A DNA stretch of 32,000 nucleotides from Candidatus Saccharimonadota bacterium (GCA_016699265.1 CP064967.1:90001-122000), one strand, 5' to 3'. Counted from the stretch's first letter, positions 1-20,765 are shown. Translations and numbers: made by a program. Notes: a model not told the origin generated them from the letters alone.

Positions 1-111
1 ATGTAGGTATTGGAACAACAGCACCTGGGGCCAAGCTTGATGTTGTTGGTTCAGGTCTATTCTCCCAGAACCTTACAGTCACTGGATCAGTCTCTGCTGG
101 ATCACTAACTG

Positions 112-1077
112 TTGGAGGACACCATCACAGACTTTACAGGTACAGGACTTAGTGCAGCTGGTAACACACTTGTCACCACCCTTGGTACCTCAATCTCAAA
201 CGGGGAGCTTGATAACTCTACAATCACCTTTGCTGGTGACTTAGGCTCCTCAACAACAGCATTAGGTGCTACAAGAACAATCTCAGGTGGTACAAACGGT
301 ATTGACACCTCAGACAACAATGCCGGTACCTTAACCATTAACTTTGACTCTACAGAGGTTGGAACCACCACCTTTGGTTCAGGGTCTGCTTTTGCCTGGA
401 CCTTTGACTCAACTGCTGGAACCGATACCTCAATTGCCTTTGGATCTAACTCTCAGATCTTTACCTCAGGGACCGCCTCATTCTCAGGAAGACTTGGTAT
501 TGGTACAACCGCTCCTACCGTTTCACTTGATGTTGTTGGTTCAGGTCTATTCTCCCAGAACCTTACAGTCACTGGTTCAGTCTCTGCTGGATCACTAACT
601 GTTGGAGGAGACACCATCACAGACTTTACAGGTACAGGACTTAGTGCAGCTGGTAACACACTTGTCACCACCCTTGGTACCTCAATCTCAAACGGGGAGC
701 TTGATAACTCTACAATCACCTTTGCTGGTGACTTAGGCTCCTCAACAACAGCATTAGGCGCTACAAGAACAATCTCAGGTGGTACAAACGACAACAATGC
801 CGGTACCTTAACCATTAACTTTGACTCTACAGAGGTTGGAACCACCACCTTGGTTCAGGATCTGCTTTTGCCTGGACCTTTGACTCAACTGCTGGAACCG
901 ATACCTCAATTGCCTTTGGATCTAACTCTCAGATCTTTACCTCAGGTACTGCTTCATTCTCAGGAAGACTTGGTATTGGTACAACCGCTCCTACCGTTTC
1001 ACCTGGAGCTGGAGTCTTCTCAACTAACTCTTACCGTTAACGGGAACACAACCCTTGGAGATAACACACAGGTTTAA
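112..1077 (+). pseudogene. Fibre-gene fragment (authentic frame about 112-846, then off-frame)
   Basis: The ORF translation matches module A twice. It switches to the +1-frame peptide LVQDLLLPGPLTQLLEP after losing one t in the ttt at about 846. Confidence 0.6.
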
Positions 1078-3529
1078 TCAGGTGTATCAGGTGCAGGTGT
1101 TTCATTTGCCTCCTCAACATTTGGAACATGTACCGCCCTTGAGACAGTCGGTGGAGTCTTGACCTGCGGATCTGATGCTGGTGGATCAGACTCAGGTTGG
1201 ATTGATGGTGGATCAAACGTCTATCTTATTACCTCCTCTGACAATGTGGTATTGGAACAACAGCACCTGGGGCCAAGCTTGATGTTGTTGGTTCAGGTCT
1301 ATTCTCCCAGAACCTTACAGTCACTGGATCAGTCTCTGCTGGATCACTAACTGTTGGAGGGGACACCATCACAGACTTTACAGGTACAGGACTTAGTGCA
1401 GCTGGTAACACACTTGTCACCACCCTTGGTACCTCAATCTCAAACGGGGAGCTTGATAACTCTACAATCACCTTTGCTGGTGACTTAGGCTCCTCAACAA
1501 CAGCATTAGGTGCTACAAGAACAATCTCAGGTGGTACAAACGGTATTGACACCTCAGACAACAATGCCGGTACCTTAACCATTAACTTTGACTCTACAGA
1601 GGTTGGAACCACCACCTTTGGTTCAGGGTCTGCTTTTGCCTGGACCTTTGACTCAACTGCTGGAACCGATACCTCAATTGCCTTTGGATCTAACTCTCAG
1701 ATCTTTACCTCAGGTACTGCTTCATTCTCAGGAAGACTTGGTATTGGTACAACTCCCTACCGTTTCACTTGATGTTGTTGGAGCTGGTCTCTTCTCCCAG
1801 AACCTCTCAACTAACAGTCTCTTGGAGATAACTGTTGGAGGACACCAACCAGACTTTAAGGCAGGACTTAGTGCAGCTGGAACATTTGGCCTCCTCAACA
1901 TTGGATAACATAATCACCTTTGACAGTCGGTGACTTGACATCTGATGAACAATTGGACAAAATGCAGGTGTATAACCAACTTCAAGTTCAGACAATGCTG
2001 AAATTCAACCAACTCTCAATTTTTGCTCAAACCTCAAATCTTTTGACTCTCAGACTAACAATTTCCGTTTGGAACAGGGGGAACACAATCACCAGTGCAC
2101 CATTGCCTTTAATGCAGGTGTCAGACATTTGTCCTCAACATTTGGAACATGTACCGCCCTTGAGACTCGGTGGAGTCTTGACCTGCGGATCTGATGCTGG
2201 TGGATCAGACTCAGGTTGGATTGATGGTGGATCAAACGTCTATCTTATTACCTCCTCTGACAATGTAGGTATTGGAACAACAGCACCTGGGGAAGCTTGA
2301 TGTTGTTGGTTCAGGTCTATTCTCCCAGAACCTTACAGTCACTGGATCAGTCTCTGCTGGATCACTAACTGTTGGAGGGACACCATCAACCAGGACTTAG
2401 TGCAGCTGGTAACACAACCCTTGGTACCTCAATCTCAAACGGGAGCTTGATAACTCTACAATCACCTTTGCTGGTGACTTAGGCTCCTCAACAACAGCAT
2501 TAGGTGCTACAAGAACAATCTCAGGTGGTACAAACGGTATTGACACCTCAGACAACAATGCCGGTACCTTAACCATTAACTTTGACTCTACAGAGGTTGG
2601 AACCACCACCTTTGGTTCAGGGTCTGCTTTTGCCTGGACCTTTGACTCAACTGCTGGAACCGATACCTCAATTGCCTTTGGATCTAACTCTCAGATCTTT
2701 ACCTCAGGGACCGCCTCCTTCTCAGGAAGACTTGGTATTGGTACAACTGCTCCAACCGTTTCACTTGATGTTGTTGGTTCAGGTCTATTCTCCCAGAACC
2801 TTACAGTCACTGGATCAGTCTCTGCTGGATCACTAACTGTTGGAGGAGACACCATCACAGACTTTACAGGTACAGGACTTAGTGCAGCTGGTAACACACT
2901 TGTAACCACCCTTGGTACCTCAATCTCAAACGGGGAGCTTGATAACTCTACAATCACCTTTGCTGGTGACTTAGGCTCCTCAACAACAGCATTAGGCGCT
3001 ACAAGAACAATCTCAGGTGGTACAAACGGTATTGACACCTCAGACAACAAATGCCGGTACCTTAACCATTAACTTTGACTCTACAGAGGTTGGAACCACC
3101 ACCTTTGGTTCAGGGATCTGCTTTTGCCTGGACCTTTGACTCAACTGCTGGAACCGATACCTCAATTGCCTTTGGATCTAACTCTCAGATCTTTACCTCA
3201 GGTACTGCTTCATTCTCAGGAAGACTTGGTATTGGTACAACCGCTCCTACCGTTTCACTTGATGTTGTTGGAGCTGGTCTCTTCTCAACTAACCTTACCG
3301 TTAACGGGAACACAACCCTTGGAGATAACACCAGTGACACCATAACCTTTAATGCAGGTGTATCAGGTGCAGGTATATCATTTGCCTCCTCAACATTTGG
3401 AACAGCCCTTGAGAGAGTCTTGACCTGCGGATCTGATGCTGGTGGATCAGAAGGTTGGATTGATGGTGGATCAAACGTCTATCTTATTACCTCCTCTGAC
3501 AATGTAGGTTCATTGGAACAACAGCACTC

Positions 3530-4309
3530 TTGCTTGGTAAGCTTGATGTTGTTGGTTCAGGTCTATTCTCCCAGAACTCTCCCACAGTCACTGGATCAGT
3601 CTCTGCTGGATCACTAACTGTTGGAGGAGACACCATCACAGACTTTACAGGTACAGGACTTAGTGCAGCTGGTAACACACTTGTCACCACCCTTGGTACC
3701 TCAATCTCAAACGGGGAGCTTGATAACTCTACAATCACCTTTGCTGGTGACTTAGGCTCCTCAACAACAGCATTAGGCGCTACAAGAACAATCTCAGGTG
3801 GTACAAACGGTATTGACACCTCAGACAACAATGCCGGTACCTTAACCATTAACTTTGACTCTACAGAGGTTGGAACCACCACCTTTGGTTCAGGATCTGC
3901 TTTTGCCTGGACCTTTGACTCAACTGCTGGAACCGATACCTCAATTGCCTTTGGATCTAACTCTCAGATCTTTACCTCAGGTACTGCTTCATTCTCAGGA
4001 AGACTTGGTATTGGTACAACTCTCCCAGAACCTTACAGTCACTGGATCAGTCTCTGCTGGATCACTAACTTCACACCATCACAGACTTTACAGGACTTAG
4101 TGCAGCTGGAGTCACTTGTCACCACCCTTGGTACCTCAATCTCAAACAGGGAGCTTGATAACTTTACAATCACCTTTGCTTACTTGGGCTCCTCAACAAC
4201 AACATTAGGCGCTACAAGAACAATCTCAGGAAAAACAGATACCTCCATTAACTTTGACTCTACAGAGGTTGGAACCACCACCTTTGGTTCAGGATCTGCT
4301 TTTGCCTGA
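3530..4309 (+). pseudogene. Fibre-gene fragment (module A plus a truncated A)
   Basis: The ORF carries LDVVGSGLFSQN...GRLGIGTT, then a junction at 4020/4021 where about 80 bp of the module boundary are missing. Confidence 0.6.
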
Positions 4310-4337
4310 CCTTTGACTCAACTTAACCGATACCTCA

Positions 4338-5021
4338 ATGCCTTTGGATCTAACTCTCAGATCTTGGACCTCAGGTACTGCTTCATTCTCAGGAAGACTT
4401 GGTATTGGTACAACCGCTCCAACCGTTTCACTTGATGTTGTTGGTTCAGGTCTATTCTCCCAGAACCTTGACACTGGTTCAGTCTCTGCTGGATCACTAA
4501 CTGTTGGAGGAGACACCATCACAGACTTTACAGGTACAGGACTTAGTGCAGCTGGTAACACACTTGTCACCACCCTTGGTACCTCAATCTCAAACGGGGA
4601 GCTTGATAACTCTACAATCACCTTTGCTGGTGACTTAGGCTCCTCAACAACAGCATTAGGTGCTACAAGAACAATCTCAGGTGGTACAAACGGTATTGAC
4701 ACCTCACCGGTACCTCTAACCATTAACTTTGACTCTACAGAGGTTGGAACCACCACCTTGGTTCAGGATCTGCTTTTGCCTGGACTTGGCTTTGACTCAA
4801 CTGCTGGAACCGATACCTCAATTGCCTTTGGATCTAACTCTCAGATCTTTACCTCAGGGACCGCCTCCTTCTCAGGAAGACTTGGTATTGGAACAACTCC
4901 CCCTACCACATTGTTGGTTCAGGTCTATTCTCCCAGAACCTTACAGTCACTGGGTTCAGTCTGCTGGATCACTAACTGTTGGAGGAGACACCATCACAGA
5001 CTTTACAGGTACAGGACTTAG
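4338..5021 (+). pseudogene. Fibre-gene fragment
   Basis: Authentic module A frame about 4365-4750 and 4795-4905, off-frame elsewhere. Confidence 0.55.
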
Positions 5022-5421
5022 TGCAGCTGGTAACACACTTGTCACCACCCTTGGTACCTCAATCTCAAACAGGGAGCTTGATAACTCTACAATCACCTTT
5101 GCTGGTGACTTAGGCTCCTCAACAACAGCATTAGGCGCTACAAGAACAATCTCAGGTGGTACAAACGGTATTGACACCTCAGACAACAATGCCGGTACCT
5201 TAACCATTAACTTTGACTCTACAGAGGTTGGAACCACCACCTTTGGTTCAGGATCTGCTTTTGCCTGGACCTTTGACTCAACTGCTGGAACGGATACCTC
5301 AATTGCCTTTGGATCTAACTCTCAGATCTTCACCTCAGGGACCGCTTCCTTCTCAGGAAGACTTGGTATTGGTAATGCTCCAACCGTTTCACATGTTGTT
5401 GAGCTGAGTCTTCTCAACTAA
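4729..5421 (+). pseudogene. Fibre-gene fragment
   Basis: Off-frame at the start (MTLQRLEPPP is the +1 frame of module A). Authentic module A frame from about 4960 to 5400. Confidence 0.55.
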
Positions 5422-6837
5422 CCTTACCGTTAACGGGAACACAACCCTGGAGATAACACCAGTGACACCATAACCTTTAATGCAGGTGTATCAGGTGCAG
5501 GTATATCATTTGCCTCCTCAACATTTGGAACATGTACCGCCCTTGAGACAGTCGGTGGAGTCTTGACCTGCGGATCTGATGCTGGTGGATCAGACTCAGG
5601 TTGGATTGATGGTGGATCAAACGTCTATCTTATTACCTCCTCTGACAATGTAGGTATTGGAACAACAGCACCTGGGGCCAAGCTTGATGTTGTTGGTTCA
5701 GGTCTATTCTCCCAGAACCTTACAGTCACTGGATCAGTCTCTGCTGGATCACTAACTGTTGGAGGGGACACATCACAGACTTTACAGGTACAGGACTTAG
5801 TGCAGCTGGTAACACACTTGTCACCACCCTTGGTACCTCAATCTCAAACGGGAGCTTGATAACTCTACAATCACCTTTGCTGGTGACTTAGGCTCCTCAA
5901 CAACAGCATTAGGCGCTACAAGAACAATCTCAGGTGGTACAAACGGTATTGACACCTCAGACAACAATGCCGGTACCTTAACCATTAACTTTGACTCTAC
6001 AGAGGTTGGAACCACCACCTTTGGTTCAGGGTCTGCTTTTGCCTGGACCTTTGACTCAACTGCTGGAACCGATACCTCAATTGCCTTTGGATCTAACTCT
6101 CAGATCTTTACCTCAGGGACTGCCTCTTCTCAGGAAGACTTGGTATTGGTACAACCGCTCCTACCGTTTCACTTGATGTTGTTGGTTCAGGTCTATTCTC
6201 CCAGAACCTTACAGTCACTGGTTCAGTCTCTGCTGGATCACTAAACTGTTGGAGGAGACACCATCACAGACTTTACAGGTACAGGACTTAGTGCAGCTGG
6301 TAACACACTTGTCACCACCCTTGGTACCTCAATCTCAAACGGGGAGCTTGATAACTCTACAATCACCTTTGCTGGTGACTTAGGCTCCTCAACAACAGCA
6401 TTAGGCGCTACAAGAACAATCTCAGGTGGTACAAACGGTATTGACACTCAGACAACAATGCCGGTACCTTAACCATTAACTTTGACTCTACAGAGGTTGG
6501 AACCACCACCTTTGGTTCAGGATCTGCTTTTGCCTCTGGACCTTTGACTCAACTGCTGGAACCGATACCTCAATTGCCTTTGGATCTAACAGATCTTTAC
6601 CTCAGGTACTGCTTCATTCTCAGGAAGACTTGGTATTGGTACAACCGCTCCTACCGTTTCACTTGATGTTGTTGGAGCTGGAGTCTTCTCAACTAACCTT
6701 ACCGTTAACGGAACACAACCCTTGGAGATAACACCAGTGACACCATAACCTTTAATGCAGGTGTATCAGGTGCAGGTATATCATTTGCCTCCTCAACATT
6801 TGGAACATGTACCGCCCTTGAGACAGTCGGTGGAGTC

Positions 6838-7797
6838 TTGACCTGCGGATCTGATGCTGGTGGATCAGACTCAGGTTGGATTGATGGTGGATCAAACGTC
6901 TATCTTATTACCTCCTCTGACAATGTAGGTATTGGAACAACAGCACCTGGGGCCAAGCTTGATGTTGTTGGTTCAGGTCTATTCTCCCAGAACCTTACAG
7001 TCACTGGATCAGTCTCTGCTGGATCACTAACTGTTGGAGGGGACACCATCACAGACTTTACAGGTACAGGACTTAGTGCAGCTGGTAACACACTTGTCAC
7101 CACCCTTGGTACCTCAATCTCAAACGGGGAGCTTGATAACTCTACAATCACCTTTGCTGGTGACTTAGGCTCCTCAACAACAGCATTAGGCGCTACAAGA
7201 ACAATCTCAGGTGGTACAAACGGTATTGACACCTCAGACAACAATGCCGGTACCTTAACCATTAACTTTGACTCTACAGAGGTTGGAACCACCACCTTTG
7301 GTTCAGGGTCTGCTTTTGCCTGGACCTTTGACTCAACTGCTGGAACCGATACCTCAATTGCCTTTGGATCTAACTCTCAGATCTTTACCTCAGGGACTGC
7401 TTCATTCTCAGGAAGACTTGGTATTGGTACAACCGCTCCAACCGTTTCACTTGATGTTGTTGGTTCAGGTCTATTCTCCCAGAACCTTACAGTCACTGGA
7501 TCAGTCTCTGCTGGATCACTAACTGTTGGAGGAGACACCATCACAGACTTTACAGGTACAGGACTTAGTGCAGCTGGTAACACACTTGTCACCACCCTTG
7601 GTACCTCAATCTCAAACGGGGAGCTTGATAACTCTACAATCACCTTTGCTGGTGACTTAGGCTCCTCAACAACAGCATTAGGCATTAGGCAAGAACTACA
7701 AGGTACAAAACGGTCACCTCAGACAACAACAACGGTACCTGGACTCCAGAGGTTGGAACCACCACCTTTGGTTCAGGATCTGCTTTTCCCACCTTGA
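6838..7797 (+). pseudogene. Longest intact stretch of the array (end of B, a full A, and half of the next A)
   Basis: LTCGSDAGGSDSGWIDGG...VGIGTTAPGAKLDVVGSG... is in frame to about 7680, after which the sequence degenerates. Confidence 0.65.
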
Positions 7798-9028
7798 CTC
7801 AACTGCTGGAACCGATACCAATGCCTTTGGATCTAACTTCAGATCTTTACCTCAGGTACTACTCAGGAAGACTTGGAATTGGTACAACTGCTCCTACCGT
7901 TCACTTGATGTTGTTTTGGTTCAGGGATCTGGAGATAACTTTTTGCCTGCTGGTGACTTTGACTCAACTTTGGAACTGCACAATGGGATCTAACTCTCGG
8001 ATCAACAATGCTCTCAGTCAAACAACAAGGACTTGGTATTGGTCACCGGTTCAGGTCTAACTTCAGAACTTCTGAACCACCTTGGACTCTTTGCCTGGAC
8101 CTTTGACTCAACTAACCGATACCTCAATTGCCTTCTCAGATCTTACCTCAGGTACAGATCCCTTGGAGATGGAATATGAACATAACCTTAATATCTTGTT
8201 GGAGCCTCAGAACTGGATGGAAAGGTATTCTCAGACAACAATGCCGGTACCTACAACTTTGATGGTAAATGTTAACCTTTTGACAAATTTGCTGGAGACC
8301 TCAGGGTCTGCGGATCTGAGCTGGTTCAGACTCCAGTTGACCTCAACGGCTCACAACAGAAACATGGAATGGTGGATGGACTCAGGTGGATCCTCGATAC
8401 TCTTGGATTCTATCTTAAGAACTCATCAGTCTCTGCTGGATCACTAACTCAAACATGACAATCAGGAATGAAGAACAATCTCAGGTGGTACAAACTTATT
8501 GACATTCGACTCTGCAGAGGTTCCAAACACTTTGTTCAGGGTCTGCTAGTTCTCAACTCTGGAACCGATACTGGTAAACTAAATTTGCCTCAGGGACTAA
8601 CTAACAGGGGAAATGCCAACTTTACTTTACAGGTTCAGGACTTAGTGGAGCTGATCTGATACCTGCTGACTCGTTCAATCAATGCCGGTACCTGTTTAAA
8701 TGGAACCGACACTCGGATTGGATGGCCCTTCTAAATCAACCGGAAATTTCCGGGAACAAACCCGTTAATTATCTTCTCTGTCATCCTGGAAACAACCTCC
8801 CTCCATTAGGTTTACAAACGGTTCAACAACAAACATTTGGAGTGAACAATCTCTATTTAGCCAAACGGTACCTGACACTTAGCACTGGTACTAACCATTA
8901 ACTCTTGACATCTACAGAGGCAAAACCACCACCTTTGATTCGGTTCAGGATCTGACTTTGTTGGACCTTTGACTCAATGCAAGAACAATCTCAGGACAAA
9001 ACGATTTCTAGTCAACAGGCAACCTGCA
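7681..9028 (+). other. Scrambled, non-coding-looking zone built from short fragments of fibre modules
   Basis: Recognisable words (ggaagacttggaattggtacaactgctcctacc, gacctttgactcaact, atctcaggtggtacaaac) are separated by deletions and substitutions. The authentic frame changes every few tens of bp. Confidence 0.7.
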
Positions 9029-9450
9029 GACACCAATGCAACTCAATATCAATCTTCCTCATCAAACAAATGCAGATACTCTGCTTGGAAGACTTAACAT
9101 TGCCAATATTACTGGAGGCTCAGCGGTTGAGAGAGGTATTCAAATCAGATCAGGTTGGGACTCAAACCACTGTACTTTAACGACTCAACCAATCGCAAAC
9201 TCTGGCACCTTTTTACTCTCAACGATGGAACAAACACCTTGTTCTCAATCGTTGATGCAGGAACAACTGGTAACGTAACTACAACCGGCACATTCAACGT
9301 TAACTAACAACACAACCCTTGGAGATGCAACAACAGATACGGTTACACTAACTGCAAAGATTGCTGGGGCCTCAGGATCTGCTCTTGGCTTCTCAGACGG
9401 TTCTTTCACCACCTGTACCGCACTTGAGACTGTAGCTGGAATGCTTACCT

Positions 9451-10062
9451 GTGGAACTGACGATGTTGGAGGTGGAGCAGGGTATGGACAGATGGTACTG
9501 CCACAGCATATCTTGCAGTCTCCTCAGACTGGGTGGTATTGGAACCTCCACTCCAACAGACAAAGTCAATATCCTAGCCTCAACATCAGGATCAGCATCA
9601 TTTGATGGACTACAGATCGACTTCACCCAGTCAGATGACACCGATTCCACAGATGCCAATGCAGGACTAAATATCAACATCACATCGTCTTCCTCAGATC
9701 CAGATACCTTGTACGGAATCAATATCGCAGCAATTACTGGAGGTAGTGCAAGAGAGACAGAACTAAATGTGGGATCAGGTTGGGATTACTCCGCCTTATT
9801 TGCAGGTAAAGTAGGAATTGGGACGACCGCACCATCGAACGTTCTATCCGTCTACACAACTACAGCCAATGATGGCATCTATCTTGATGGTACAGATCGA
9901 CCAACTATACAGATCGCATCAAGCGGTGTAACGCGAGCTCGATTCGGTGTTTCTACCGGAGCAGGCCAATCATCTGACTCAGTCGCAAATGATGTAGTCA
10001 TTAGAACGGAAGGCACAAATCTACTATTTAATACAAACGGAGGATCATCAATGCTGCATTAG
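9451..10062 (+). pseudogene. Fragment of the degraded 2592-bp unit
   Basis: From about 9535 the translation matches residues GIGTSTPTDKVNILASTSGSASFDGLQIDF...NTNGGSS of the 11507-16309 ORF. Confidence 0.6.
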
Positions 10063-10156
10063 CGCTAAGCAGCACAGGTACAGCATTATTCAAAACACAA
10101 CCAACTCTACAACTGCTTTCGTAGTTCAGAACTCTGGAGGTACGAGCCTACTAAAT

Positions 10157-10609
10157 GTGGATACTTCAAACAACCGTATAACTTTGAAGGCAGATATTGA
10201 GACGTCCAATAATATCAGCAGTCCTTATGGCGGAACAGGTGTAATAGGAAACAGACTCGGTTTGTCAGAAGAGCTCGAAAATACTTTTCTATGGACGGCA
10301 AATAATCTAACAGTAACAGCCAACAACAGCTCAGCTCCAGACGCGACCCTGACAGCAGACACACTAAGTGGTTCGGCTGCAAATAGTACATTAACCTATA
10401 CTAACAGCGACATTGATGGTGCAGGCACTTACACATTTAGCATATGGCTTAAATCAAACGCCGGTAATATACCATCAACAATTCGTCTAGACTCTACGGC
10501 GGGTAGTCCTACTACCGGTACCGCAGTCAACATAACTGCTACTACCGAATGGAAGCGTTTCAGTGTGACCCAAACCTTCACTGGTAGCCCAACAGCCATT
10601 AGTCGGTAA
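10157..10609 (+). pseudogene. Fragment of the degraded 2592-bp unit (CBM-like part)
   Basis: VDTSNNRITLKADIE...TEWKRFSVTQTFTGSPTAIS is nearly identical to the clean copy at about 12749-13195. Confidence 0.6.
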
Positions 10610-11506
10610 TAACCATTACGAACAGTGGAGAAACCATTGTTGCGTGGGGAGCTCAGGTCAATCAGGCACCAGTATGGGAGTGTATACGCCAGGTGGAACG
10701 CATTCAAATCAGGAAGCTGGCGTCGTAGTCAACGGTTTACTACGACTATTTAGTAACGAGGATAGCGGAGGATATGCAGCAATTATATTTGGTTCCGGAG
10801 ACAGCAATTACAGTACTGCTCTAAGCAAAAGTGGTTTTGCAAGTACCAGGCAATACAGGTGATTTTGCATTTAACATAGATACGACGGATGGATTATTCA
10901 AATTTCAGTCAGGTTATGGGACGGCCCTTACTATAAAACCATCTGCTTATAATACCGGGACAGGTATCTTAATTTCTGGTTCGGCGCCAAGTTCCGTAAC
11001 CCAAACCAGCTGCGGTCACGGGCCTCAGCCTAAATCAGTCCACTAACTTTACTGTTCCAAACAGTTCTGCCGGAAATCAAACAGGCATTAACCTAACCAT
11101 AAAAGACGGTGGAGCCTCCGCAACCTCGAAAGGTATCTCTATTCAGGGTACTGCTGACACAGGTATAAGCTTTGGCGGAACTATAACCAATCTTATAGAT
11201 GCGACGAACTTCAAGGTTTCGAGCCTTGGAGTAGCTACTCTTGGCTCTGCGAACCAAGCTGGTTCGCTCGTCATCAATGACGGAACTAGTAGTACTGTTA
11301 CTATTAAATCCGGAACTCAGGTAGCTGCTACTAACTATGACATTACTATTCCCGCCATTACGGGCAGCGACATAATCTGCTTACAATCGTTCGCTAACTG
11401 TGGTGGAGCAAGCGTATGGATAGACGGAACCGCTAATGCATATCTTTCGGTCTCCTCAGACTGGGTAGGTATTGGGACCTCAACTCCAACTGATAAGCTA
11501 AACGTA

Positions 11507-14500
11507 TTGGCCTCAACTTCTGGGTCAACCTCATTTGACGGACTACAGATTGACTTTACTCAAGACGATGATGCGGACTCAGCAGACACCAATGCAGGAC
11601 TTAACATTAACATCACTTCATCTTCCTCAGACCAAGACACAGTACTTGGTATTAACATTGCAAATATTACCGGAGGCTCAGCGTTTGAGAGAGGATTGCA
11701 GATTGGATCAGGATGGGATAGCAATCTGTACTTTAATGACACGACAACCAATATTGGCATTGCAAACTCTCAGATCTTCACCTCAGGGACCGCCTCCTTC
11801 TCAGGAAGACTTGGTATTGGTACAACCGCTCCAACCGTTTCACTTGATGTTGTTGGAGCTGGAGTCTTCTCAACTAACCTTACCGTTAACGGGAACACAA
11901 CCCTTGGAGATGCTACAACAGATACGGTTACACTAACTGCAAAGATTGCTGGGGCCTCAGGATCTGCTCTTGGCTTCTCAGACGGTTCTTTCACCACCTG
12001 TACCGCACTTGAGACTGTAGCTGGAATGCTTACCTGTGGAACTGACGATGTTGGAGGTGGAGCAGGAGTATGGACAGATGGTACTGCCACAGCATATCTT
12101 GCAGTCTCCTCAGACTGGGTAGGTATTGGAACCTCCACTCCAACAGACAAAGTCAATATCCTAGCCTCAACATCAGGATCAGCATCATTTGATGGACTAC
12201 AGATCGACTTCACCCAGTCAGATGACACCGATTCCACAGATGCCAATGCAGGACTAAATATCAACATCACATCGTCTTCCTCAGATCCAGATACCTTGTA
12301 CGGAATCAATATCGCAGCAATTACTGGAGGTAGTGCAAGAGAGACAGGGCTAAATGTGGGATCAGGTTGGGATTACTCCGCCTTATTTGCAGGTAAAGTA
12401 GGAATTGGGACGACCGCACCATCGAACGTTCTATCCGTCTACACAACTACAGCCAATGATGGCATCTATCTTGATGGTACAGATCGACCAACTATACAGA
12501 TCGCATCAAGCGGTGTAACGCGAGCTCGATTCGGTGTTTCTACCGGAGCGGGCCAGTTATCATCTGACTCAGTCGCAAATGATGTAGTCATTAGAACGGA
12601 AGGCACAAATCTACTATTTAATACAAACGGAGGATCATCCAATGCTGCATTAGCGCTAAGCAGCACAGGTACAGCATTATTCAAAAACACAACCAACTCT
12701 ACAACTGCTTTCGTAGTTCAGAACTCTGGAGGTACGAGCCTACTAAATGTGGATACTTCAAACAACCGTATAACTTTGAAGGCAGATATTGAGACGTCCA
12801 ATAATATCAGCAGTCCTTATGGCGGAACAGGTGTAATAGGAAACAGACTCGGTTTGTCAGAAGAGCTCGAAAATACTTTTCTATGGACGGCAAATAATCT
12901 AACAGTAACAGCCAACAACAGCTCAGCTCCAGACGCGACCCTGACAGCAGACACACTAAGTGGTTCGGCTGCAAATAGTACATTAACCTATACTAACAGC
13001 GACATTGATGGTGCAGGCACTTACACATTTAGCATATGGCTTAAATCAAACGCCGGTAATATACCATCAACAATTCGTCTAGACTCTACGGCGGGTAGTC
13101 CTACTACCGGTACCGCAGTCAGCATAACTGCTACTACCGAATGGAAGCGTTTCAGTGTGACCCAAACCTTCACTGGTAGCCCTACCGCTATCAGTCCGGT
13201 AATAACCATTACGAACAGTGGAGAAACCATTGTTGCGTGGGGAGCTCAGGTCCAATCAGGCACCAGTATGGGAGTGTATACGCCAGGTGGAACGCATTCA
13301 AATCAGGAAGCTGGCGTCGTAGTCAACGGTTTACTACGACTATTTAGTAACGAGGATAGCGGAGGATATGCCGCAATTATATTTGGTTCCGGAGACAGCA
13401 ATTACAGTACTGCTCTAAGCAAAAGTGGTTTGCAAGTACCAGGCAATACGGGTGATTTTGCATTTAACATAGATACGACGGATGGATTATTCAAATTTCA
13501 GTCAGGTTATGGGACGGCCCTTACTATAAAACCATCTGCTTATAATACCGGGACAGGTATCTTGATTTCTGGTTCTGCGCCAAGTTCCGTAACTCAAACC
13601 GGGGCAGTCACCGGCCTCAGCCTAGATCAATCCACCAACTTCACTGTTCCAAACAGTTCTGCCGGTAATCAAACGGGCATCAACCTAACCATAAAAGACG
13701 GTGGAGCCTCCGCAACCTCGAAAGGTATCTCTATTCAGGGTACTGCTGACACAGGTATAAGCTTTGGCGGAACTATAACCAATCTTATAGATGCGACGAA
13801 CTTCAAGGTTTCGAGCCTTGGAGTAGCTACTCTTGGCTCTGCGAACCAAGCTGGTTCGCTCGTCATCAATGACGGAACTAGTAGTACTGTTACTATTAAA
13901 TCCGGAACTCAGGTAGCTGCTACTAACTATGACATTACTATTCCCGCCATTACGGGCAGCGACATAATCTGCTTACAATCGTTCGCTAACTGTGGTGGAG
14001 CAAGCGTATGGATAGACGGAACCGCTAATGCATATCTTTCGGTCTCCTCAGACTGGGTAGGTATTGGGACCTCAACTCCAACTGATAAGCTAAACGTATT
14101 GGCCTCAACTTCTGGGTCAACCTCATTTGACGGACTACAGATTGACTTTACTCAAGACGATGATGCGGACTCAGCAGACACCAATGCAGGACTTAACATT
14201 AACATCACTTCATCTTCCTCAGACCAAGACACAGTACTTGGTATTAACATTGCAAATATTACCGGAGGCTCAGCGTTTGAGAGAGGATTGCAGATTGGAT
14301 CAGGATGGGATAGCAATCTGTACTTTAATGACACGACAACCAATATTAGCATTGCAAACTCTGGTACCTTCACCTTCAATGACGGAACAAACACCTTGTT
14401 CTCAATCGTTGATACGGGAACAAATGCAGATCTTATTATTACCGGAGGCGTAACATTTGCAGCCTTTACGAATGGAGGCTTGGGCTGCTCAGCATTAGAA

Positions 14501-16309
14501 ACTACCGCTACAGGAGCGCTAAACTGCGGAACGGACGATACTACAGGTGGATCAGCTCCAGGTTGGACCGATGGTGGATTTAACGTCTACTTATCAACGC
14601 TCAATGACCTAGTGGGTATCGGAACAACTACTCCAACAGATAAGTTAAACATCCTAGCTTCTACCTCAGGTTCGGCAGCATTTGATGGACTACAGATTGA
14701 CTTTACTTTGTCATCGGATGGAGACAGTGCGGATAACAACGCCGGCCTAAACATTAATCTCACACAATCAAGTAGTGATGCTGATGTTCTCAATGGAATA
14801 AGCATCTCAATCGCCGGAGCGAGTACGAGCGCGAGAGAGCGAGGAATCTCAATAGGTACCGGTTTTGATGATGACATCTACTTCGCCTCTGCGTCAGCGA
14901 CTCTTAGAATTCAGAGTGGAGGACAGATTGCAATTACCGACAACTTTATCGGTGGAGGCGCAAGTAGCGATCTCCCACTTGCTCGACTAAAGGAGTACTT
15001 CTCCGATGCGAACTTTGGCGTTTGGGAGGCCGGTGGCTTCATAAATCTTGATGGATCGTATAGAATGGATAACTTTATTAATCCGGGATCTGCCTCAGCG
15101 GATATTTCCGGCGCATCGAAACTCGGAGACAATCGGGACTGGGTCGTCGATGAGGCTGCAACCGGCGCAGGAGGCACTGCTACTCAGCAGGTAGGATGTC
15201 AGGTAGGCGTAGGTGGCGGTAACACTAACCTTACATACGGTACCAGTAATCAACTAAATGGCGTTATGTATATGAAGCTTGACTCAAACTCAGTGACAAA
15301 CACACCGAATACGTGGTGCGCGATGTATCATGCTGACACCGCCGGCTCAAATGCCACACGCATGGCTCAGCTAAATGCAGCCAACAAGTTCATTATGTAC
15401 TATAAAGTCCGACCGGACTCAAACTACACCGCAACAAATACCCCAAGCAACAACAACCTCTTTTTCTGGCTAGGGGCAAATCAGCATACTCAAGGCTACT
15501 TTGGTAAGTCAACCCTTACTTCAAATAATAATCTCATTGCGTTCACCAATCTCAATGGTACCCAGACGCAGACCGGTACGAACGCTACGGCCGGTACGGT
15601 GTGGAATGGATGGGTGCAAAATGGAACTGCAGCTACCAATATATCTACGGTATCGTGTTCGAATGCCAACATCAGTACTGCTACCAATGCATGGGCATTG
15701 ATGCGTATCGAGGCTCGTGCCACTAATGATGTTCATTTCTTCATTGACGGGGATGTTTCTAACGGTGTTAGTCTGAGTGAGTGTGGAGGCGGCATTACCT
15801 CAAACATCCCAACCGGAATGTTAAGGCCACAAATTATGGCTGCCCAAAACGGCGGAACCGTCACCGTCACAAGAGGTCTATTTGTCGATCTTTTTGCCTT
15901 CGTTCAGGATGATGTGCGTGATGGTACGACTCCACAGCAGGCGTTATCAACCGACGCAGAGTTAGCCAACACAACGCAAGAAATCCCCGACATTATGGGT
16001 GGCGCAGACCTTGCCGAGCACTATTATGTTCCTGAAGGACAGGAGATTCACCCTGGAGAGATCGTTTCGCTCGGAAACTATGCAGGTCAGGTAAATAAAT
16101 CAACAAGACCATACGATCGCAAACTCTTAGGTGTAGTGTCTGAGTCTCCGGGTCTTGAGATTGGGCAGGCTGCGGCTAACTCTGTACCGGTCGCGCTTAC
16201 CGGACGCGTGTCAGTGAAGGTTAATGGTAGTGGTGGAGCAATAAAGATAGGCGATCCAATCACTCCATCTCTAATTTCAGGAGGGTATGAAGGCAACCGA
16301 GGCCGGTAA
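11507..16309 (+). CDS. Giant surface fibre/adhesin, intact 3' portion (1600 codons). It contains Cys-loop plus VGIGT(S/T)TPTDK modules, a CBM-like jelly-roll, a LamG/ConA-like region and the start of a conserved C-terminal domain. The 5' boundary is not a real start.
   Basis: This is the longest ORF in the window. It begins at a TTG inside the LASTSGS repeat. The same frame stays open and homologous back to about 11045 with no ATG/GTG/TTG. Motifs: WGAQVQSGTSMGVYTP (12893-13290 region) and WALMRIEARATNDVHFFIDGD (about 15690-15750). Confidence 0.85.
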   Translation: MASTSGSTSFDGLQIDFTQDDDADSADTNAGLNINITSSSSDQDTVLGINIANITGGSAFERGLQIGSGWDSNLYFNDTTTNIGIANSQIFTSGTASFSGRLGIGTTAPTVSLDVVGAGVFSTNLTVNGNTTLGDATTDTVTLTAKIAGASGSALGFSDGSFTTCTALETVAGMLTCGTDDVGGGAGVWTDGTATAYLAVSSDWVGIGTSTPTDKVNILASTSGSASFDGLQIDFTQSDDTDSTDANAGLNINITSSSSDPDTLYGINIAAITGGSARETGLNVGSGWDYSALFAGKVGIGTTAPSNVLSVYTTTANDGIYLDGTDRPTIQIASSGVTRARFGVSTGAGQLSSDSVANDVVIRTEGTNLLFNTNGGSSNAALALSSTGTALFKNTTNSTTAFVVQNSGGTSLLNVDTSNNRITLKADIETSNNISSPYGGTGVIGNRLGLSEELENTFLWTANNLTVTANNSSAPDATLTADTLSGSAANSTLTYTNSDIDGAGTYTFSIWLKSNAGNIPSTIRLDSTAGSPTTGTAVSITATTEWKRFSVTQTFTGSPTAISPVITITNSGETIVAWGAQVQSGTSMGVYTPGGTHSNQEAGVVVNGLLRLFSNEDSGGYAAIIFGSGDSNYSTALSKSGLQVPGNTGDFAFNIDTTDGLFKFQSGYGTALTIKPSAYNTGTGILISGSAPSSVTQTGAVTGLSLDQSTNFTVPNSSAGNQTGINLTIKDGGASATSKGISIQGTADTGISFGGTITNLIDATNFKVSSLGVATLGSANQAGSLVINDGTSSTVTIKSGTQVAATNYDITIPAITGSDIICLQSFANCGGASVWIDGTANAYLSVSSDWVGIGTSTPTDKLNVLASTSGSTSFDGLQIDFTQDDDADSADTNAGLNINITSSSSDQDTVLGINIANITGGSAFERGLQIGSGWDSNLYFNDTTTNISIANSGTFTFNDGTNTLFSIVDTGTNADLIITGGVTFAAFTNGGLGCSALETTATGALNCGTDDTTGGSAPGWTDGGFNVYLSTLNDLVGIGTTTPTDKLNILASTSGSAAFDGLQIDFTLSSDGDSADNNAGLNINLTQSSSDADVLNGISISIAGASTSARERGISIGTGFDDDIYFASASATLRIQSGGQIAITDNFIGGGASSDLPLARLKEYFSDANFGVWEAGGFINLDGSYRMDNFINPGSASADISGASKLGDNRDWVVDEAATGAGGTATQQVGCQVGVGGGNTNLTYGTSNQLNGVMYMKLDSNSVTNTPNTWCAMYHADTAGSNATRMAQLNAANKFIMYYKVRPDSNYTATNTPSNNNLFFWLGANQHTQGYFGKSTLTSNNNLIAFTNLNGTQTQTGTNATAGTVWNGWVQNGTAATNISTVSCSNANISTATNAWALMRIEARATNDVHFFIDGDVSNGVSLSECGGGITSNIPTGMLRPQIMAAQNGGTVTVTRGLFVDLFAFVQDDVRDGTTPQQALSTDAELANTTQEIPDIMGGADLAEHYYVPEGQEIHPGEIVSLGNYAGQVNKSTRPYDRKLLGVVSESPGLEIGQAAANSVPVALTGRVSVKVNGSGGAIKIGDPITPSLISGGYEGNRGR

Positions 16310-17135
16310 GATTCTTGGAACCGCGATGGAGGCATACACCGCAGAAGGGTCAGGAACCATTATGGTAAACGTCAATGTAGGTTATTATCTAGGGGATGAG
16401 CTTGGGTTAGAGCAGAACGACGAGATAGGCTTCGGTCAGAGCGAGCTCGCCTCGGGCTCCGCAACGCTTGCAAACAGCCCTGTCATCGCCATCCGAAGCT
16501 ATGTTTATAAAGGCCTTACAGAATTCTGGAATAAGGTTACGTTCAAAGAAACTGCTGAGTTCTGGGCTGAGGTGGTCTTCAAGAGCACTGTTCGTTTCGA
16601 AGGACAGGTTGAGTTCAATAAAGATACTGCGGGTTATGCAACAATCAGAAAGGGTGAAAGATTTGTAGATGTGGCCTTTGACAATTCGTATCAAACAGAG
16701 CCAATCGTCAACCTTAGCATTAACGTACCACAGGTCACCGATGAGCTATACCAAGAGTTAATAGCGTCTGGTGAGTGTGATGCCACTGAAGGAAAGGATG
16801 CATGTCAAGACAAAGTTGCAAACCTCGTACTAGGTGAAGATATTAAGGAAGGAGTTACTGGAAAGAGCTCGCAGGGCTTTATGATAATTCTGAACAAGCC
16901 AGCTCCGATCGACATCACCTACTCGTGGCAGGCGATCGCCGTAAAGAATGCAAAAACATCGGTCACAAAGACCACTCAGGAACTCCTAAATGAAGCGAGT
17001 GGCTCTGCGCAACTGGATCAAGGAGATGTGGCGGGTGAGGCAACTCCGAGCGCTATCATAACACCAATTGTTCCAATAACGCCTACTCCTTTTAGCGTTG
17101 AAGAGCTCACGCCAACTCCTTCAGTCGGACCGTAA
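16287..17135 (+). CDS. C-terminal continuation of the fibre protein in another frame (frameshift at about 16283-16290)
   Basis: The domain motif GDPITPSLISGGY | KATEAGKILGTAMEAY...GTIMVNVNVGYY runs straight across the ORF boundary. The 23-bp overlap with the upstream ORF fits a 1-nt insertion or a 2-nt deletion. Confidence 0.75.
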   Translation: MKATEAGKILGTAMEAYTAEGSGTIMVNVNVGYYLGDELGLEQNDEIGFGQSELASGSATLANSPVIAIRSYVYKGLTEFWNKVTFKETAEFWAEVVFKSTVRFEGQVEFNKDTAGYATIRKGERFVDVAFDNSYQTEPIVNLSINVPQVTDELYQELIASGECDATEGKDACQDKVANLVLGEDIKEGVTGKSSQGFMIILNKPAPIDITYSWQAIAVKNAKTSVTKTTQELLNEASGSAQLDQGDVAGEATPSAIITPIVPITPTPFSVEELTPTPSVGP

Positions 17136-17146
17136 AGGCTAAGGTC

Positions 17147-18781
17147 TTATTTAAGAAAGACTTCGTAGATCTGGAAGATATTACTTGTCTCGGCCTTGTT
17201 TAAATCGCTATGTTTGGCTGCGAATAGTTTTTCTATTTTTCTACATTTATGAGGGATGGCCTTACATTCGAAAGCATTCATGGTGAAAACTCTTCTACCA
17301 GATTTCAGTTGGTTTTTCACGAACTCGATGGTGGTATCATCCTCAAGGAAATACTGGTAGTAGACGGTAGGATGCCCATGAAGTAGCGGGATAGCTGTTA
17401 TAGGATGTATAACAACCGCATCTTTAGGTATCGCTGGAAGAAATATCTGTTCCAGATACGCATGAACATAAACTGGTCCCTGATCAACCGCGTTAAACAT
17501 TGTGGGCGCATATATGACCAGATCTTTATAATGCCAAAAATTAGAGCCGAGTTGAACCGTGGTCAGCGCAACCAGAAGAATAAATCCAGCCACGTACCTT
17601 TTTGCCTTATGAATGTTTGGTACGATATAAGATGCAATACAATCGGAGTACAGCAATATCAGTGGCGGAATTAGAATTAGGAAATACCGGCCGTACGAAC
17701 CTGAGAACTCAGCGGTTACAAACAGCCCCGCATAATAAAATGAATAAAGTAGAAAAAATGAAACGATCCAGAAGAGCTGTAAGCGATGTGAAATACTTTT
17801 GGAGGTAAGCCCAAGCCATAGTGCAGGAAGCGACAATACATACGGAAACTCAAAACCAGTGACAAGATACATAAGATTGGGTAGTGTATTTCGCGTAATA
17901 TACTTAGCGCTGAATGACTCAAGTGGAAGAGAGTCTGCACAGCACCATTTTTCTCCGAGAACCGAAAGAGAAGCGATCCCTCGCGCCAAGATTAGTGGAA
18001 TCATCATTATGAGAAGTTGTTTGTCATGCGACTGGAAAAGTATTTCTCCTCGACTTTTTCTATATCCCATTGCGAAGTACAGAAAAAGCGGTAGTAAAAT
18101 AAAGGCCTCAATGCGCACGCAGAGCAGGAGAAAAACACTCGTGGTAACAAATAGCGCATAGGTGAACGAAGGACCTTTAAGATAGAGTGCGAGAGATACG
18201 AATGAGGTTACGGTAAAAAATACAAAATAGGGGTCAAGTGCCATCGAAGCAGACCAGTAAACCAGTATCGGTAAGTAAAGCATGCCAACCAGAGTGAGTA
18301 GTGATCCAAGATATGATCGGAACAGCATGTAGCTTAGTACAGAAAGATAGATAGCGAGTAGCACGGACACGACGCGAGAGGCGTTGAAGAGGTTCGACTC
18401 CTGGTAACCAAATAGCTTGAGTATCCATCCATGCAATACGGGGACTGTGACTCGTACCGCTTGATCCGGTTTTCCGATCACTGATTTTTCAGGAGTAGCT
18501 GCCTCAACGCTTACTGCTTGATTTAGTCGCGCGAAGCTTACAGAATACCCAAGATACCGATCCTCATCGTAAAAAATGCGATGTTGATTGGGCACAAAGG
18601 CAAAGCGAAGATATACTCCTCCAGCTATGGCTGCAATCGCGATCAAGAGAATGATCTTCGGTGTTTTAAGTAAATGTTTAACGAATCTTGGAAGAAATAG
18701 AAGATTGAGCACGACAAACAGAAATAGAATGCCAGTTGTAGTCCAAGGAAAAATAATACCGAGGAGCGTTTCAGCGAGCAT
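17147..18781 (-). CDS. GT-C fold membrane glycosyltransferase (ArnT/PMT-like, GT39/83-type)
   Basis: 544 aa with many TM helices. An acidic motif, HRIFYDEDRY, sits in the first outer loop after TM1-2, as in ArnT/PMT enzymes. There is a C-terminal soluble domain. Confidence 0.65.
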   Translation of the reverse strand: MLAETLLGIIFPWTTTGILFLFVVLNLLFLPRFVKHLLKTPKIILLIAIAAIAGGVYLRFAFVPNQHRIFYDEDRYLGYSVSFARLNQAVSVEAATPEKSVIGKPDQAVRVTVPVLHGWILKLFGYQESNLFNASRVVSVLLAIYLSVLSYMLFRSYLGSLLTLVGMLYLPILVYWSASMALDPYFVFFTVTSFVSLALYLKGPSFTYALFVTTSVFLLLCVRIEAFILLPLFLYFAMGYRKSRGEILFQSHDKQLLIMMIPLILARGIASLSVLGEKWCCADSLPLESFSAKYITRNTLPNLMYLVTGFEFPYVLSLPALWLGLTSKSISHRLQLFWIVSFFLLYSFYYAGLFVTAEFSGSYGRYFLILIPPLILLYSDCIASYIVPNIHKAKRYVAGFILLVALTTVQLGSNFWHYKDLVIYAPTMFNAVDQGPVYVHAYLEQIFLPAIPKDAVVIHPITAIPLLHGHPTVYYQYFLEDDTTIEFVKNQLKSGRRVFTMNAFECKAIPHKCRKIEKLFAAKHSDLNKAETSNIFQIYEVFLK

Positions 18782-18784
18782 ACT

Positions 18785-20755: not shown

Positions 20756-20765
20756 GATAAGGTGA

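What the first reader, a model, noticed from the sequence alone, without database searches (positions are those of the whole stretch)
1..17135. A fibre gene of more than 17 kb whose first 11.5 kb is frame-broken: unpolished giant ORF, recent pseudogene, or silent-cassette reservoir 5' of an expressed copy
Every part of 1-17135 on the + strand belongs to one family of Ser/Thr/Gly/Asn-rich modules, about 5,700 codons if contiguous, and the 5' end is off-window. The only long ORF (11507-16309) has no credible start. It opens at a TTG inside a repeat. The same frame is open and homologous back to about 11045 without any ATG/GTG/TTG, Shine-Dalgarno sequence or signal peptide. Upstream of that, the authentic frame survives only in runs of at most about 285 codons. 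Base substitutions between paralogous copies are mostly synonymous. Examples: 11045-11100 vs 13637-13692 differ by ttt/ttc, gga/ggt, aca/acg and att/atc; 10586-10603 vs 13178-13195 differ as cca aca gcc att vs cct acc gct atc. The damage comes from 1-2 bp indels, several in short homopolymers: cc to c near 10050, 10604 and 10659; a5 to a4 at 10092-10095; t3 to t4 at 10835-10838. So the copies were under coding selection until the indels appeared, which means the indels are either artefactual or very recent. If they are real, the layout is a promoterless, same-strand stack of homologous frame-broken cassettes directly 5' of an open 3' copy. That resembles gene-conversion antigenic-variation loci (Borrelia vls, Neisseria pilS, Anaplasma msp2), which as far as I know have not been described for this kind of organism.
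Basis: partly seen in the sequence, partly recalled or inferred. Interest (0 to 1): 0.8.

Follow-up and report, generated by a model that had tools for sequence, protein, structure and literature searches.

The report
Giant surface-protein gene broken by assembly errors
The "frame-broken" 11.5 kb is part of one very large, real cell-surface protein gene of a wastewater Roizmanbacteria (CPR) bacterium, and its frameshifts are almost certainly uncorrected nanopore errors in the repeats of an unpolished hybrid assembly, not decay or silent cassettes.

Summary
Window 1-17135 (+) is one repeat-rich coding region, and everything 5' of 11000 is split by many small indels. A further 2-nt frameshift lies at 16279.

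The window comes from CP064967, a closed 928,688-bp Ca. Roizmanbacteria MAG (Singleton et al. 2021). It was built with Unicycler using --no_pilon --mode bold, from 12x Illumina and 15x R9.4.1 nanopore data. Unicycler inserts raw long-read consensus wherever the short-read graph cannot resolve a repeat.

The damage fits that origin:
- About 65-70 frameshifting indels lie in 11.9 kb of repeats, against 2 in the next 16.2 kb compared with siblings.
- The indels are deletion-biased (49 deletions, 15 insertions in the 492-nt array).
- In the stretches that other assemblies cover, every indel is private to this assembly.

Ten independent assemblies of the same species read straight through 16279. 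Those that reach further read through the copy-A indels, with ORFs open up to about 2,400 codons. Orthologues in two relatives are intact (2,575 and 2,604 aa).

Substitutions between the paralogous copies are 22/26 synonymous. The 3' "expressed copy" is less variable among strains than its flanks. The true start is off-window: QQR63997.1, with two MerR HTH domains, a TM helix and then the fibre.

Verdict: assembly artefact in a real giant gene. Pseudogene and cassette readings are not supported.

The parts
1..7532 (+). Array of about 492-nt coding repeats (at least 15 units, grouped in super-units of about 1.27 kb). It is an internal part of the giant gene, and the 5' end of the gene is off-window. 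Some units are clean (117-608, 7041-7532). Others carry up to 12 small indels (4073-4510).
   Evidence: Compared with unit 7041-7532, the family copies in 1-9000 show 136 mismatches, 49 deletion events, 15 insertion events and 51 frameshifting events over 6305 aligned columns.
7533..9308 (+). Most degraded stretch. It holds fragments of the 492-nt family and a sibling-like linker (9025-9308). These differ from their counterparts mainly by many short deletions and few substitutions. This is probably the poorest part of a long-read consensus bridge.
   Evidence: 7534-7925 has 14 gaps and 16 mismatches; 8090-8155 has 3 gaps and 1 mismatch; 9025-9308 has 10 indels against 5 siblings.
9309..11755 (+). 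Copy A of a 2.45-kb tandem duplication. It carries 9 private indels (8 frameshifting) and 26 mostly synonymous substitutions relative to copy B. 11756-11893 is the junction to copy B.
11894..14347 (+). Copy B of the duplication. It has no indels against six sibling assemblies.
13564..13681 (+). 118-nt patch in copy B with 18 substitutions private to this assembly. Copy A and all six siblings share the other allele at most of these sites. No donor was found in the window or in the loci fetched. It looks like a short recombination tract.
14348..17135 (+). Unique C-terminal region of the giant protein, ending at the stop codon 17133-17135. It is nearly invariant among 10 sibling assemblies. It has a sub-threshold Peptidase_G2/IMC-like match.
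16278..16281 (+). Site of the 2-nt deletion (GGGG->GG) that separates ORF 11507-16309 from ORF 16287-17135. It is private to this assembly and cuts through a conserved domain.
   Evidence: 10 of 10 siblings have GGGG; P0001 reads ...SLISGEGMKATEAGK....
17147..18781 (-). Convergent 544-aa neighbour gene. It is syntenic in relatives and served as the anchor to retrieve sibling contigs. It marks the 3' boundary of the giant gene.

Best explanation
Window 1-17135 is the larger, 3' part of a single giant gene for a membrane-anchored cell-surface fibre protein of a Ca. Roizmanbacteria (Microgenomatia, CPR) bacterium from activated sludge. The gene probably exceeds 20 kb.

The gene starts upstream of the window. 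It opens with two cytoplasmic MerR-type HTH domains and one transmembrane helix. It then runs through a long array of near-identical 492-nt repeats, a duplicated 2.45-kb module and a unique C-terminal region.

The frame breaks are not biological. The genome (CP064967) was assembled with Unicycler without Pilon polishing, in 'bold' mode, at about 12x Illumina and 15x R9.4.1 nanopore depth. Where the short-read graph could not be threaded through the repeats, raw nanopore consensus was pasted in. That left deletion-biased small indels. Unique DNA came from Illumina contigs and is clean.

Shown: the source and the assembly method; the distribution, bias and privacy of the indels; the open frame in sibling assemblies and orthologues; and the real start.

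Inferred: that each individual indel is an error, because the reads were not inspected. The copy number of the repeats is not established.
For: 1. Source.
- Window ORFs are identical to QQR64019.1, QQR64024.1 and QQR64025.1 and to IPH70_00540 and IPH70_00545, all on a 928,688-bp Ca. Roizmanbacteria contig.
- Supplementary Data 3 of PMC8012365 lists a 928,688-bp MAG, Damh_18-Q3-R51-60_BAT3C.63_uni = CP064967. It is circular, with ilmcov 12.3 and npcov 15.5.
- '_uni' MAGs were made with Unicycler --no_correct --no_pilon --mode bold. The paper describes further polishing only for the Flye assemblies.
- The Unicycler paper states that when no graph path exists the long-read consensus is used directly and is error-prone. 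It also states that Pilon is the step that removes small errors, and that bold mode accepts low-quality bridges.

2. Distribution.
- In 11884-28069 (16.2 kb) the window has only 2 private indels and 21 private substitutions against 3-10 siblings.
- 1-11893 holds roughly 65-70 frameshifting indels.

3. Error signature.
- In the 492-nt array there are 49 deletion events (228 nt) against 15 insertion events (27 nt).
- Copy A has 7 deletions and 2 insertions, about half of them in short homopolymers.
- Degraded units show many gaps with few mismatches.

4. Privacy.
- All 10 independent assemblies (JGI, ENA, Logan) have GGGG at 16279.
- Six lack every copy-A indel.
- Their ORFs run open for 1,706-2,169 codons to the contig end, and for about 2,400 codons to an N-gap in L002.

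5. Orthologues are intact: 2,575 aa in L012 and 2,604 aa in L017, with the same downstream synteny. Both align across 16279.

6. Coding constraint. Of the A/B substitutions, 22/26 are synonymous third-position changes (p = 1e-7). Real decay producing 8 frameshifts should carry many unconstrained substitutions.

7. Real start. QQR63997.1 is on the same contig. It has 2x MerR HTH, a TM helix and fibre modules, and it terminates by frameshift exactly where it enters the first 492-nt unit.
Against: - No reads were available, so no single indel is proven to be an error.
- The 2-nt deletions at 16279 and 24954 lie in unique DNA. That DNA should have come from Illumina contigs, so either these spots were also bridged by long reads or they are real strain variants.
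- Copy A carries its own synonymous variants (10591-10600) right next to an indel (10603). Copy A is therefore a real distinct sequence, and Illumina reads carrying those variants could in principle have resolved it.
- The error density is very uneven, from about 1 per 300 nt in copy A to about 1 per 35 nt in 7534-9308. I can only attribute this to local consensus quality.
- The link from window to CP064967 rests on exact protein identity and matching contig length, not on the nucleotide record itself.
Confidence: 0.9

Rival explanations
1. Recent real pseudogenisation. In this particular strain the giant gene has just been inactivated and is accumulating small indels.
For: - The indels are in the deposited sequence.
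- Two of them (16279, 24954) lie in unique DNA of otherwise Illumina-grade accuracy.
- CPR genomes are reductive, and large surface genes are plausible targets of loss (background knowledge).
Against: - There are roughly 65-70 frameshifts with almost no unconstrained substitutions (22/26 synonymous).
- The indels are confined to the parts a short-read graph cannot resolve.
- They show a 3:1 deletion bias.
- Where siblings overlap, all are private to one assembly, and that assembly is documented as unpolished hybrid.
- All 10 conspecific assemblies and two orthologues are intact.
Confidence: 0.05
2. Silent-cassette reservoir. 1-11506 is a stack of promoterless, frame-broken donor cassettes that diversify an expressed 3' copy by gene conversion, as in vls, pilS or msp2.
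For: - The layout is same-strand homologous modules 5' of an open copy.
- One 118-nt patch (13564-13681) and a few smaller clusters (12004-12064, 12637-12706) look like short recombination tracts.
Against: - The 3' copy has no start of its own. In siblings the frame is continuous from the 'cassette' region into it.
- The real start is the MerR-HTH/TM N-terminus upstream.
- The 3' 5.25 kb is less variable among 10 assemblies than the flanking genes.
- The divergent patch has no donor in the window or in the loci fetched.
- The 492-nt units are near-identical to each other, so they would offer no diversity to donate.
Confidence: 0.01
3. Mixed case. The bulk of the indels are artefacts, but the 2-nt G-run deletion at 16279 is real, as a strain variant or phase-variable tract that truncates the last 285 residues. 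The 2.45-kb duplication may also be real.
For: - 16279 lies in unique, otherwise clean sequence, with 3 private SNPs in 16 kb outside the patch.
- Copies A and B each carry their own synonymous variants, so two distinct copies exist in the sample.
Against: - The deletion at 16279 removes 2 nt from a run of only 4 G, which is too short for classical slippage-based phase variation (background knowledge).
- A second private 2-nt homopolymer deletion sits in intergenic DNA at 24954 (T8->T6). That points to a shared technical cause.
- The deletion cuts a conserved domain.
Confidence: 0.12

Closest known systems
Long-read consensus bridges in Unicycler hybrid assemblies left unpolished (Wick et al. 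2017, PMC5481147)
   Same: The indel errors are restricted to repeats that the short-read graph cannot resolve, and unique DNA is clean. The assembly flags (--no_pilon, bold) and the low depth match the documented failure mode.
   Different: Nothing essential differs. The scale is unusual, with more than 11 kb of one gene affected, because the gene itself is a very long near-perfect repeat array.
Giant repeat-rich surface proteins of ultra-small bacteria (CPR/Patescibacteria, Omnitrophota)
   Same: It is a multi-thousand-residue, Ser/Thr/Gly/Asn-rich modular extracellular protein with a single membrane anchor. It is intact in relatives at 2,575-2,604 aa. Short-read assemblies break inside it.
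   Different: This copy carries an N-terminal tandem MerR-type HTH before the TM helix. If the nanopore-derived copy number is right, it is several times longer than its orthologues. Pfam gave no above-threshold hit for the parts scanned: two 492-nt-array stretches, 11000-17135 and the sibling-derived module and C-terminal sequences.
Gene-conversion antigenic-variation loci (Borrelia vlsE/vls, Neisseria pilE/pilS, Anaplasma msp2)
   Same: Only the superficial layout is shared: homologous same-strand segments 5' of an open reading frame.
   Different: - There is no separate expression site with its own start.
- The 'cassettes' are in frame in other assemblies.
- The cassettes are near-identical rather than diverse.
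- The 3' copy is conserved among strains.
Phage tail-fibre/tailspike-like C-terminal modules (Peptidase_G2 / intramolecular-chaperone type)
   Same: The motif 'IGTTAPT..LDV' recurs before module boundaries. There is a weak Peptidase_G2 IMC match (E = 0.003, below the cut-off) in the C-terminal region.
   Different: The match is below Pfam's threshold. There is no PDB sequence match. The context is chromosomal and cellular (ATP synthase, NDK, M23 peptidase), not a prophage.

Membership tests
Gene-conversion antigenic-variation locus (vls / pilS / msp2 type) | A distinct expression site with its own promoter and start codon, separate from the silent copies | tested here: not met
   The ORF 11507-16309 opens at an internal TTG, and its frame is open back to 11000. 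In siblings the frame continues upstream for about 2,400 codons or more. The real ATG start is in QQR63997.1, far upstream.
Gene-conversion antigenic-variation locus (vls / pilS / msp2 type) | Silent cassettes are genuinely non-coding or truncated in the organism | tested here: not met
   The homologous DNA in 6-10 independent assemblies of the same species carries none of the frameshifts.
Gene-conversion antigenic-variation locus (vls / pilS / msp2 type) | The expressed copy is hypervariable among strains or time points, with segments traceable to cassettes | tested here: not met
   Divergence over the 3' 5.25 kb is 0.1-0.9%, against 0.3-5.4% in the flanks. The one divergent patch has no donor in the window or the loci fetched.
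Gene-conversion antigenic-variation locus (vls / pilS / msp2 type) | Cassettes differ from each other in variable regions, giving a diversity reservoir | tested here: not met
   The 492-nt units are 95-100% identical apart from indels. Copy A differs from copy B by 26 mostly synonymous sites.
Unpolished long-read bridge artefact in a hybrid assembly | The source assembly was made from noisy long reads plus short reads without final short-read polishing | tested here: met
   CP064967 = Damh_18-Q3-R51-60_BAT3C.63_uni. It was built with Unicycler --no_pilon --mode bold, the R9.4.1 model r941_flip213 was in use, and depth was 12x/15x. The link to the window is through exact protein matches.
Unpolished long-read bridge artefact in a hybrid assembly | Errors are confined to repeats, and unique sequence is clean | tested here: met
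   There are 2 private indels in 16.2 kb (11884-28069), which includes the clean repeat copy B, against roughly 65-70 frameshifts in 11.9 kb of repeats.
Unpolished long-read bridge artefact in a hybrid assembly | Indel-dominated, deletion-biased and partly homopolymer-associated error spectrum | tested here: met
   There are 49 deletions against 15 insertions. Examples are CC->C three times, A5->A4, T3->T4, GGGG->GG and T8->T6.
Unpolished long-read bridge artefact in a hybrid assembly | Accurate reads from the same sample contradict the indels | not testable with these tools
Only independent assemblies from other samples could be compared.
Recent pseudogene | Substitutions since inactivation are spread evenly over codon positions | tested here: not met
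   22 of 26 substitutions are at third positions and synonymous (p = 1e-7).
Recent pseudogene | Disruptions are shared by other members of the lineage or population | tested here: not met
   Where siblings overlap, every disruption is private to this one assembly.
Giant membrane-anchored surface fibre proteins of CPR bacteria with N-terminal MerR-type HTH | N-terminal MerR/HTH_17 domains followed by a TM helix and a long repeat region in one ORF | tested here: met
   L018 and QQR63997.1 hit MerR at E = 9e-18 and MerR_1 at E = 3e-16 (two stretches each), followed by a hydrophobic helix and then fibre modules. More distant homologues of 1,351-3,056 aa carry the same Pfam set (P0008, P0010, P0012).

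The most novel reading that the evidence does not exclude
With the artefactual frameshifts removed, the locus would encode one protein of perhaps 7,000-9,000 residues. Two cytoplasmic MerR-type DNA-binding domains would be tethered through a single TM helix to an enormous extracellular fibre. That would make it a membrane-bound one-component regulator or anchor.

Its module content (number of 492-nt units, the 2.45-kb duplication, short conversion-like patches) would differ between otherwise near-identical strains of a CPR episymbiont. In that reading, intragenic recombination within a single expressed gene diversifies the surface fibre, with no silent cassettes involved.
Probability: 0.3. Interest if true: 0.4.

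Novelty: not a real feature. Interest (0 to 1): 0.1.

Why it matters
As posed (frame-broken cassettes or a fresh pseudogene), the finding does not matter biologically. It is a quality defect of one deposited 'complete' genome.

It has practical value:
- CP064967 is annotated with roughly 30 'hypothetical protein' fragments and a spurious 688-aa 'MerR family transcriptional regulator'. Together these are one gene.
- Closed CPR genomes built with unpolished hybrid assemblies will systematically shred their largest repeat-rich surface genes. Those are the genes most relevant to host attachment.

The underlying gene (HTH-TM-giant fibre) is a reasonable target for re-sequencing with accurate long reads.

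Tried and rejected
- **Alternative genetic code or stop-codon recoding.** Rejected. The breaks are frame shifts, not in-frame stops. All flanking genes read normally in table 11.
- **Retrieving the source contig around the 5' end.** Exact-protein look-ups of P0019 and P0023 found nothing on record. The part of the gene upstream of the window could therefore only be inferred from QQR63997.1 and L018.
- **Search for a donor of the divergent patch 13564-13681.** None was found in the window or in 26 loci.
- **Pfam on the repeat stretches tested and on the C-terminus.** No family reached threshold. The only hit was a weak Peptidase_G2 IMC match. The PDB sequence search gave no hit.
- **Consensus MSA of the seven super-units to classify indels as private or shared.** It is qualitatively clear that nearly all are private. 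The alignment was too gappy in units 1361-2354 and 7041-8317 for a clean count, so I used pairwise counts instead.
- **Frame-track by tblastn.** It was only roughly informative, because some queries were the window's own translations.
- **Literature search for the HTH-TM-giant-fibre architecture in Patescibacteria.** Nothing specific was returned.
- **Structure prediction.** Not run, because it would not bear on the artefact question.

Full report
**What is in the window**

The + strand of 1-17135 is one repeat-rich coding region. It ends at a stop codon (17133-17135) and is convergent with a 544-aa gene on the - strand. Downstream lie ordinary chromosomal genes, all intact in table 11: two beta-lactamase-family genes, a GT2 glycosyltransferase, an NAD-epimerase, an M23 peptidase, NDK and an ATP-synthase operon.

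Frame 2 is stop-free from 11000 to 16306. The last 285 codons (16281-17135) are in frame 3. Upstream of 11000 the homologous frame changes repeatedly, with stop-free runs of at most 362 codons.

The repeat anatomy is as follows:
- At least 15 units of about 492 nt in super-units of about 1.27 kb (1-7532).
- A badly degraded stretch (7533-9308).
- A 2.45-kb tandem duplication: copy A at 9309-11755, a junction at 11756-11893, and copy B at 11894-14347.
- A unique 3' part.

Overall, 22 of the 26 A/B substitutions are synonymous third-position changes (p = 1e-7).

**Comparison with other assemblies of the same organism**

The neighbouring 544-aa protein occurs with an identical sequence in 91 blocks of the public collection, and ten contigs were fetched. 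They are 96.8-99.8% identical to the window.

In all ten, the window lacks two G of a GGGG run at 16279. This is the frameshift that separates 11507-16309 from 16287-17135. The JGI protein P0001 reads straight through it...SLISGEGMKATEAGK....

Six contigs extend into the duplicated module. They carry none of the nine copy-A indels. Their giant ORF is open to the contig end for 1,706-2,169 codons. In scaffold L002 it is open for about 2,400 codons up to a run of N.

Over 11884-28069 (16.2 kb) the window has only 21 private substitutions, 18 of them in one 118-nt patch. It has two private indels, both 2-nt homopolymer deletions, at 16279 and 24954.

The repeats look very different. Copies of the 492-nt family, measured against a clean unit, show 49 deletion events (228 nt), 15 insertion events (27 nt) and 51 frameshifting events. 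The stretch 9025-9308 has 10 indels against five siblings, and copy A has 9. The degraded units differ from clean ones mainly by gaps, with few mismatches.

**Relatives**

A scan of GTDB genomes found orthologues with the same downstream synteny. One is an intact 2,575-aa ORF in a relative with 85% amino-acid identity (L012). Another is an intact 2,604-aa ORF with an N-terminal membrane anchor on a 1.23-Mb Roizmanbacteria contig (L017). Both align across the 16279 site without a break.

The domain cut at 16279 is also present, uninterrupted, in the 287-aa ORF at 27205-28068.

**Where the sequence comes from**

Window ORFs are identical to the NCBI proteins QQR64019.1 (IPH70_00565), QQR64024.1 and QQR64025.1, and to the IPH70_00540 and IPH70_00545 products. 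All are on a 928,688-bp Ca. Roizmanbacteria contig.

Supplementary Data 3 of Singleton et al. 2021 (PMC8012365) lists a MAG of that size, Damh_18-Q3-R51-60_BAT3C.63_uni = CP064967. It is circular, classified as Microgenomatia, with Illumina coverage 12.3x and nanopore coverage 15.5x.

The methods state that '_uni' genomes were reassembled with Unicycler v0.4.6 using --no_correct --no_pilon --mode bold. They describe further polishing only for the Flye reassemblies.

The Unicycler paper (PMC5481147) states three relevant points:
[quoted passage not shown] - Pilon is the step that reduces small errors.
- Bold mode accepts low-quality bridges.

A near-perfect 492-nt array and a 2.45-kb duplication at 12x Illumina depth are exactly where a graph path would fail.

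**Interpretation**

The pattern matches what that pipeline predicts: clean unique DNA, indel-ridden repeats, deletion bias and privacy to one assembly. A biological origin is hard to reconcile with the data. Eight frameshifts in copy A alone, alongside substitutions that are 85% synonymous, would require decay with essentially no neutral substitutions. No conspecific assembly shares a single lesion.

The cassette model fails on four counts:
- The 3' 'expressed copy' has no start of its own.
- In siblings it is in frame with the supposed cassettes.
- Its divergence from the ten siblings (0.1-0.9%) is lower than that of its flanks (0.3-5.4%).
- The 492-nt units are too alike to be a diversity reservoir.

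The 'missing start' exists upstream of the window. QQR63997.1, on the same contig, is annotated as a 688-aa MerR family transcriptional regulator. It begins with two MerR HTH domains (E = 9e-18 and 3e-16), followed by a TM helix and then fibre modules. It terminates by frameshift exactly where it enters the first 492-nt unit...GIGTTAPGAK|ENYRSLVIRMKFN against ...GIGTTAPGAKLDVVGSG... in clean units.

About 21 annotated fragments lie between QQR63997.1 and IPH70_00565. This count is inferred from accession numbering. The whole gene is therefore probably 20-27 kb, a rough estimate.

**What remains uncertain**

- I could not inspect reads, so each indel is an inferred error, not a demonstrated one.
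- The two 2-nt homopolymer deletions in unique DNA (16279, 24954) are the best candidates for real variants. They could equally be long-read patches over short-read dead ends at low coverage.
- Copies A and B each carry private synonymous variants (10591-10600 in A, 13564-13681 in B). Two distinct copies therefore exist in the sample. Whether they are tandem in one genome, and how many 492-nt units there truly are, rests on nanopore bridging in bold mode.
- Sibling short-read assemblies show at least two different module arrangements upstream of 11884. L005, L006, L007, L010 and L002 show one, and L008 shows another. This may be real strain variation or assembly chimerism.

**Verdict**

This is a real giant surface-protein gene whose apparent fragmentation is an assembly artefact. 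Interest in the finding as posed is low. The gene's architecture (MerR-HTH, TM helix, giant fibre) is a modest side lead.

Noticed in passing
off-window 5' of position 1 (QQR63997.1 on the same contig; L018 8420-10682): The protein annotated 'MerR family transcriptional regulator' (688 aa) is really the N-terminus of the giant gene. It has two MerR-type HTH domains, one TM helix and then fibre modules. More distant CPR homologues of 1,351-3,056 aa carry the same HTH Pfam set (P0008, P0010, P0012). A cytoplasmic DNA-binding head on a giant extracellular fibre is an unusual architecture, and I found no description of it.
   Followed up: partly
window 24954: A second private 2-nt homopolymer deletion (T8->T6), seen against three siblings, lies in the intergenic gap between ORFs 24413-24913 and 24967-26337. 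It is the same kind of lesion as at 16279, in otherwise clean unique DNA.
   Followed up: partly
window 13564-13681: A 118-nt patch in copy B has 18 mostly synonymous substitutions private to this assembly. Copy A and six siblings share the other allele at most of these sites. It looks like a short recombination tract. No donor was found in the window or the loci fetched.
   Followed up: yes
window 27205-28068 (+): The first ORF of the ATP-synthase cluster (287 aa, same in siblings) has a signal/TM segment. It also has a domain homologous to the giant protein's C-terminal domain (28% identity, E = 9e-11). It ends in a c-subunit-like hairpin (weak ATP-synt_C hit) whose second helix has no acidic residue. 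No ATP-synt_A (a-subunit) match turned up among the cluster ORFs from 27205 on that were scanned against Pfam.
   Followed up: partly
window 20000-23400: Sites where the sibling assemblies differ among themselves are concentrated in the beta-lactamase-family/GT2/epimerase stretch. There are 110-201 polymorphic sites per kb at 21000-23000, against 0-3 per kb across 13000-18000. The 3' end of the giant gene is among the most conserved parts of the locus. In L001 and L003 no epimerase gene was called in the corresponding gap.
   Followed up: no
L011-L014 (GTDB genome contigs): Four MAG records titled 'uncultured Gammaproteobacteria bacterium' carry close homologues (59-86% aa) of this Microgenomatia gene. 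L012 also has the same downstream synteny. The organism labels look wrong.
   Followed up: no
L005-L008, L010 and L002, upstream of the equivalent of window 11884: Short-read siblings show two different module orders 5' of the 2.45-kb unit. In L008 a 492-nt unit comes directly before it. In L005, L006, L007, L010 and L002 a 9025-9308-like linker precedes it, with divergent paralogous modules further upstream. This may be real strain-level structural variation or repeat-induced chimeras.
   Followed up: partly
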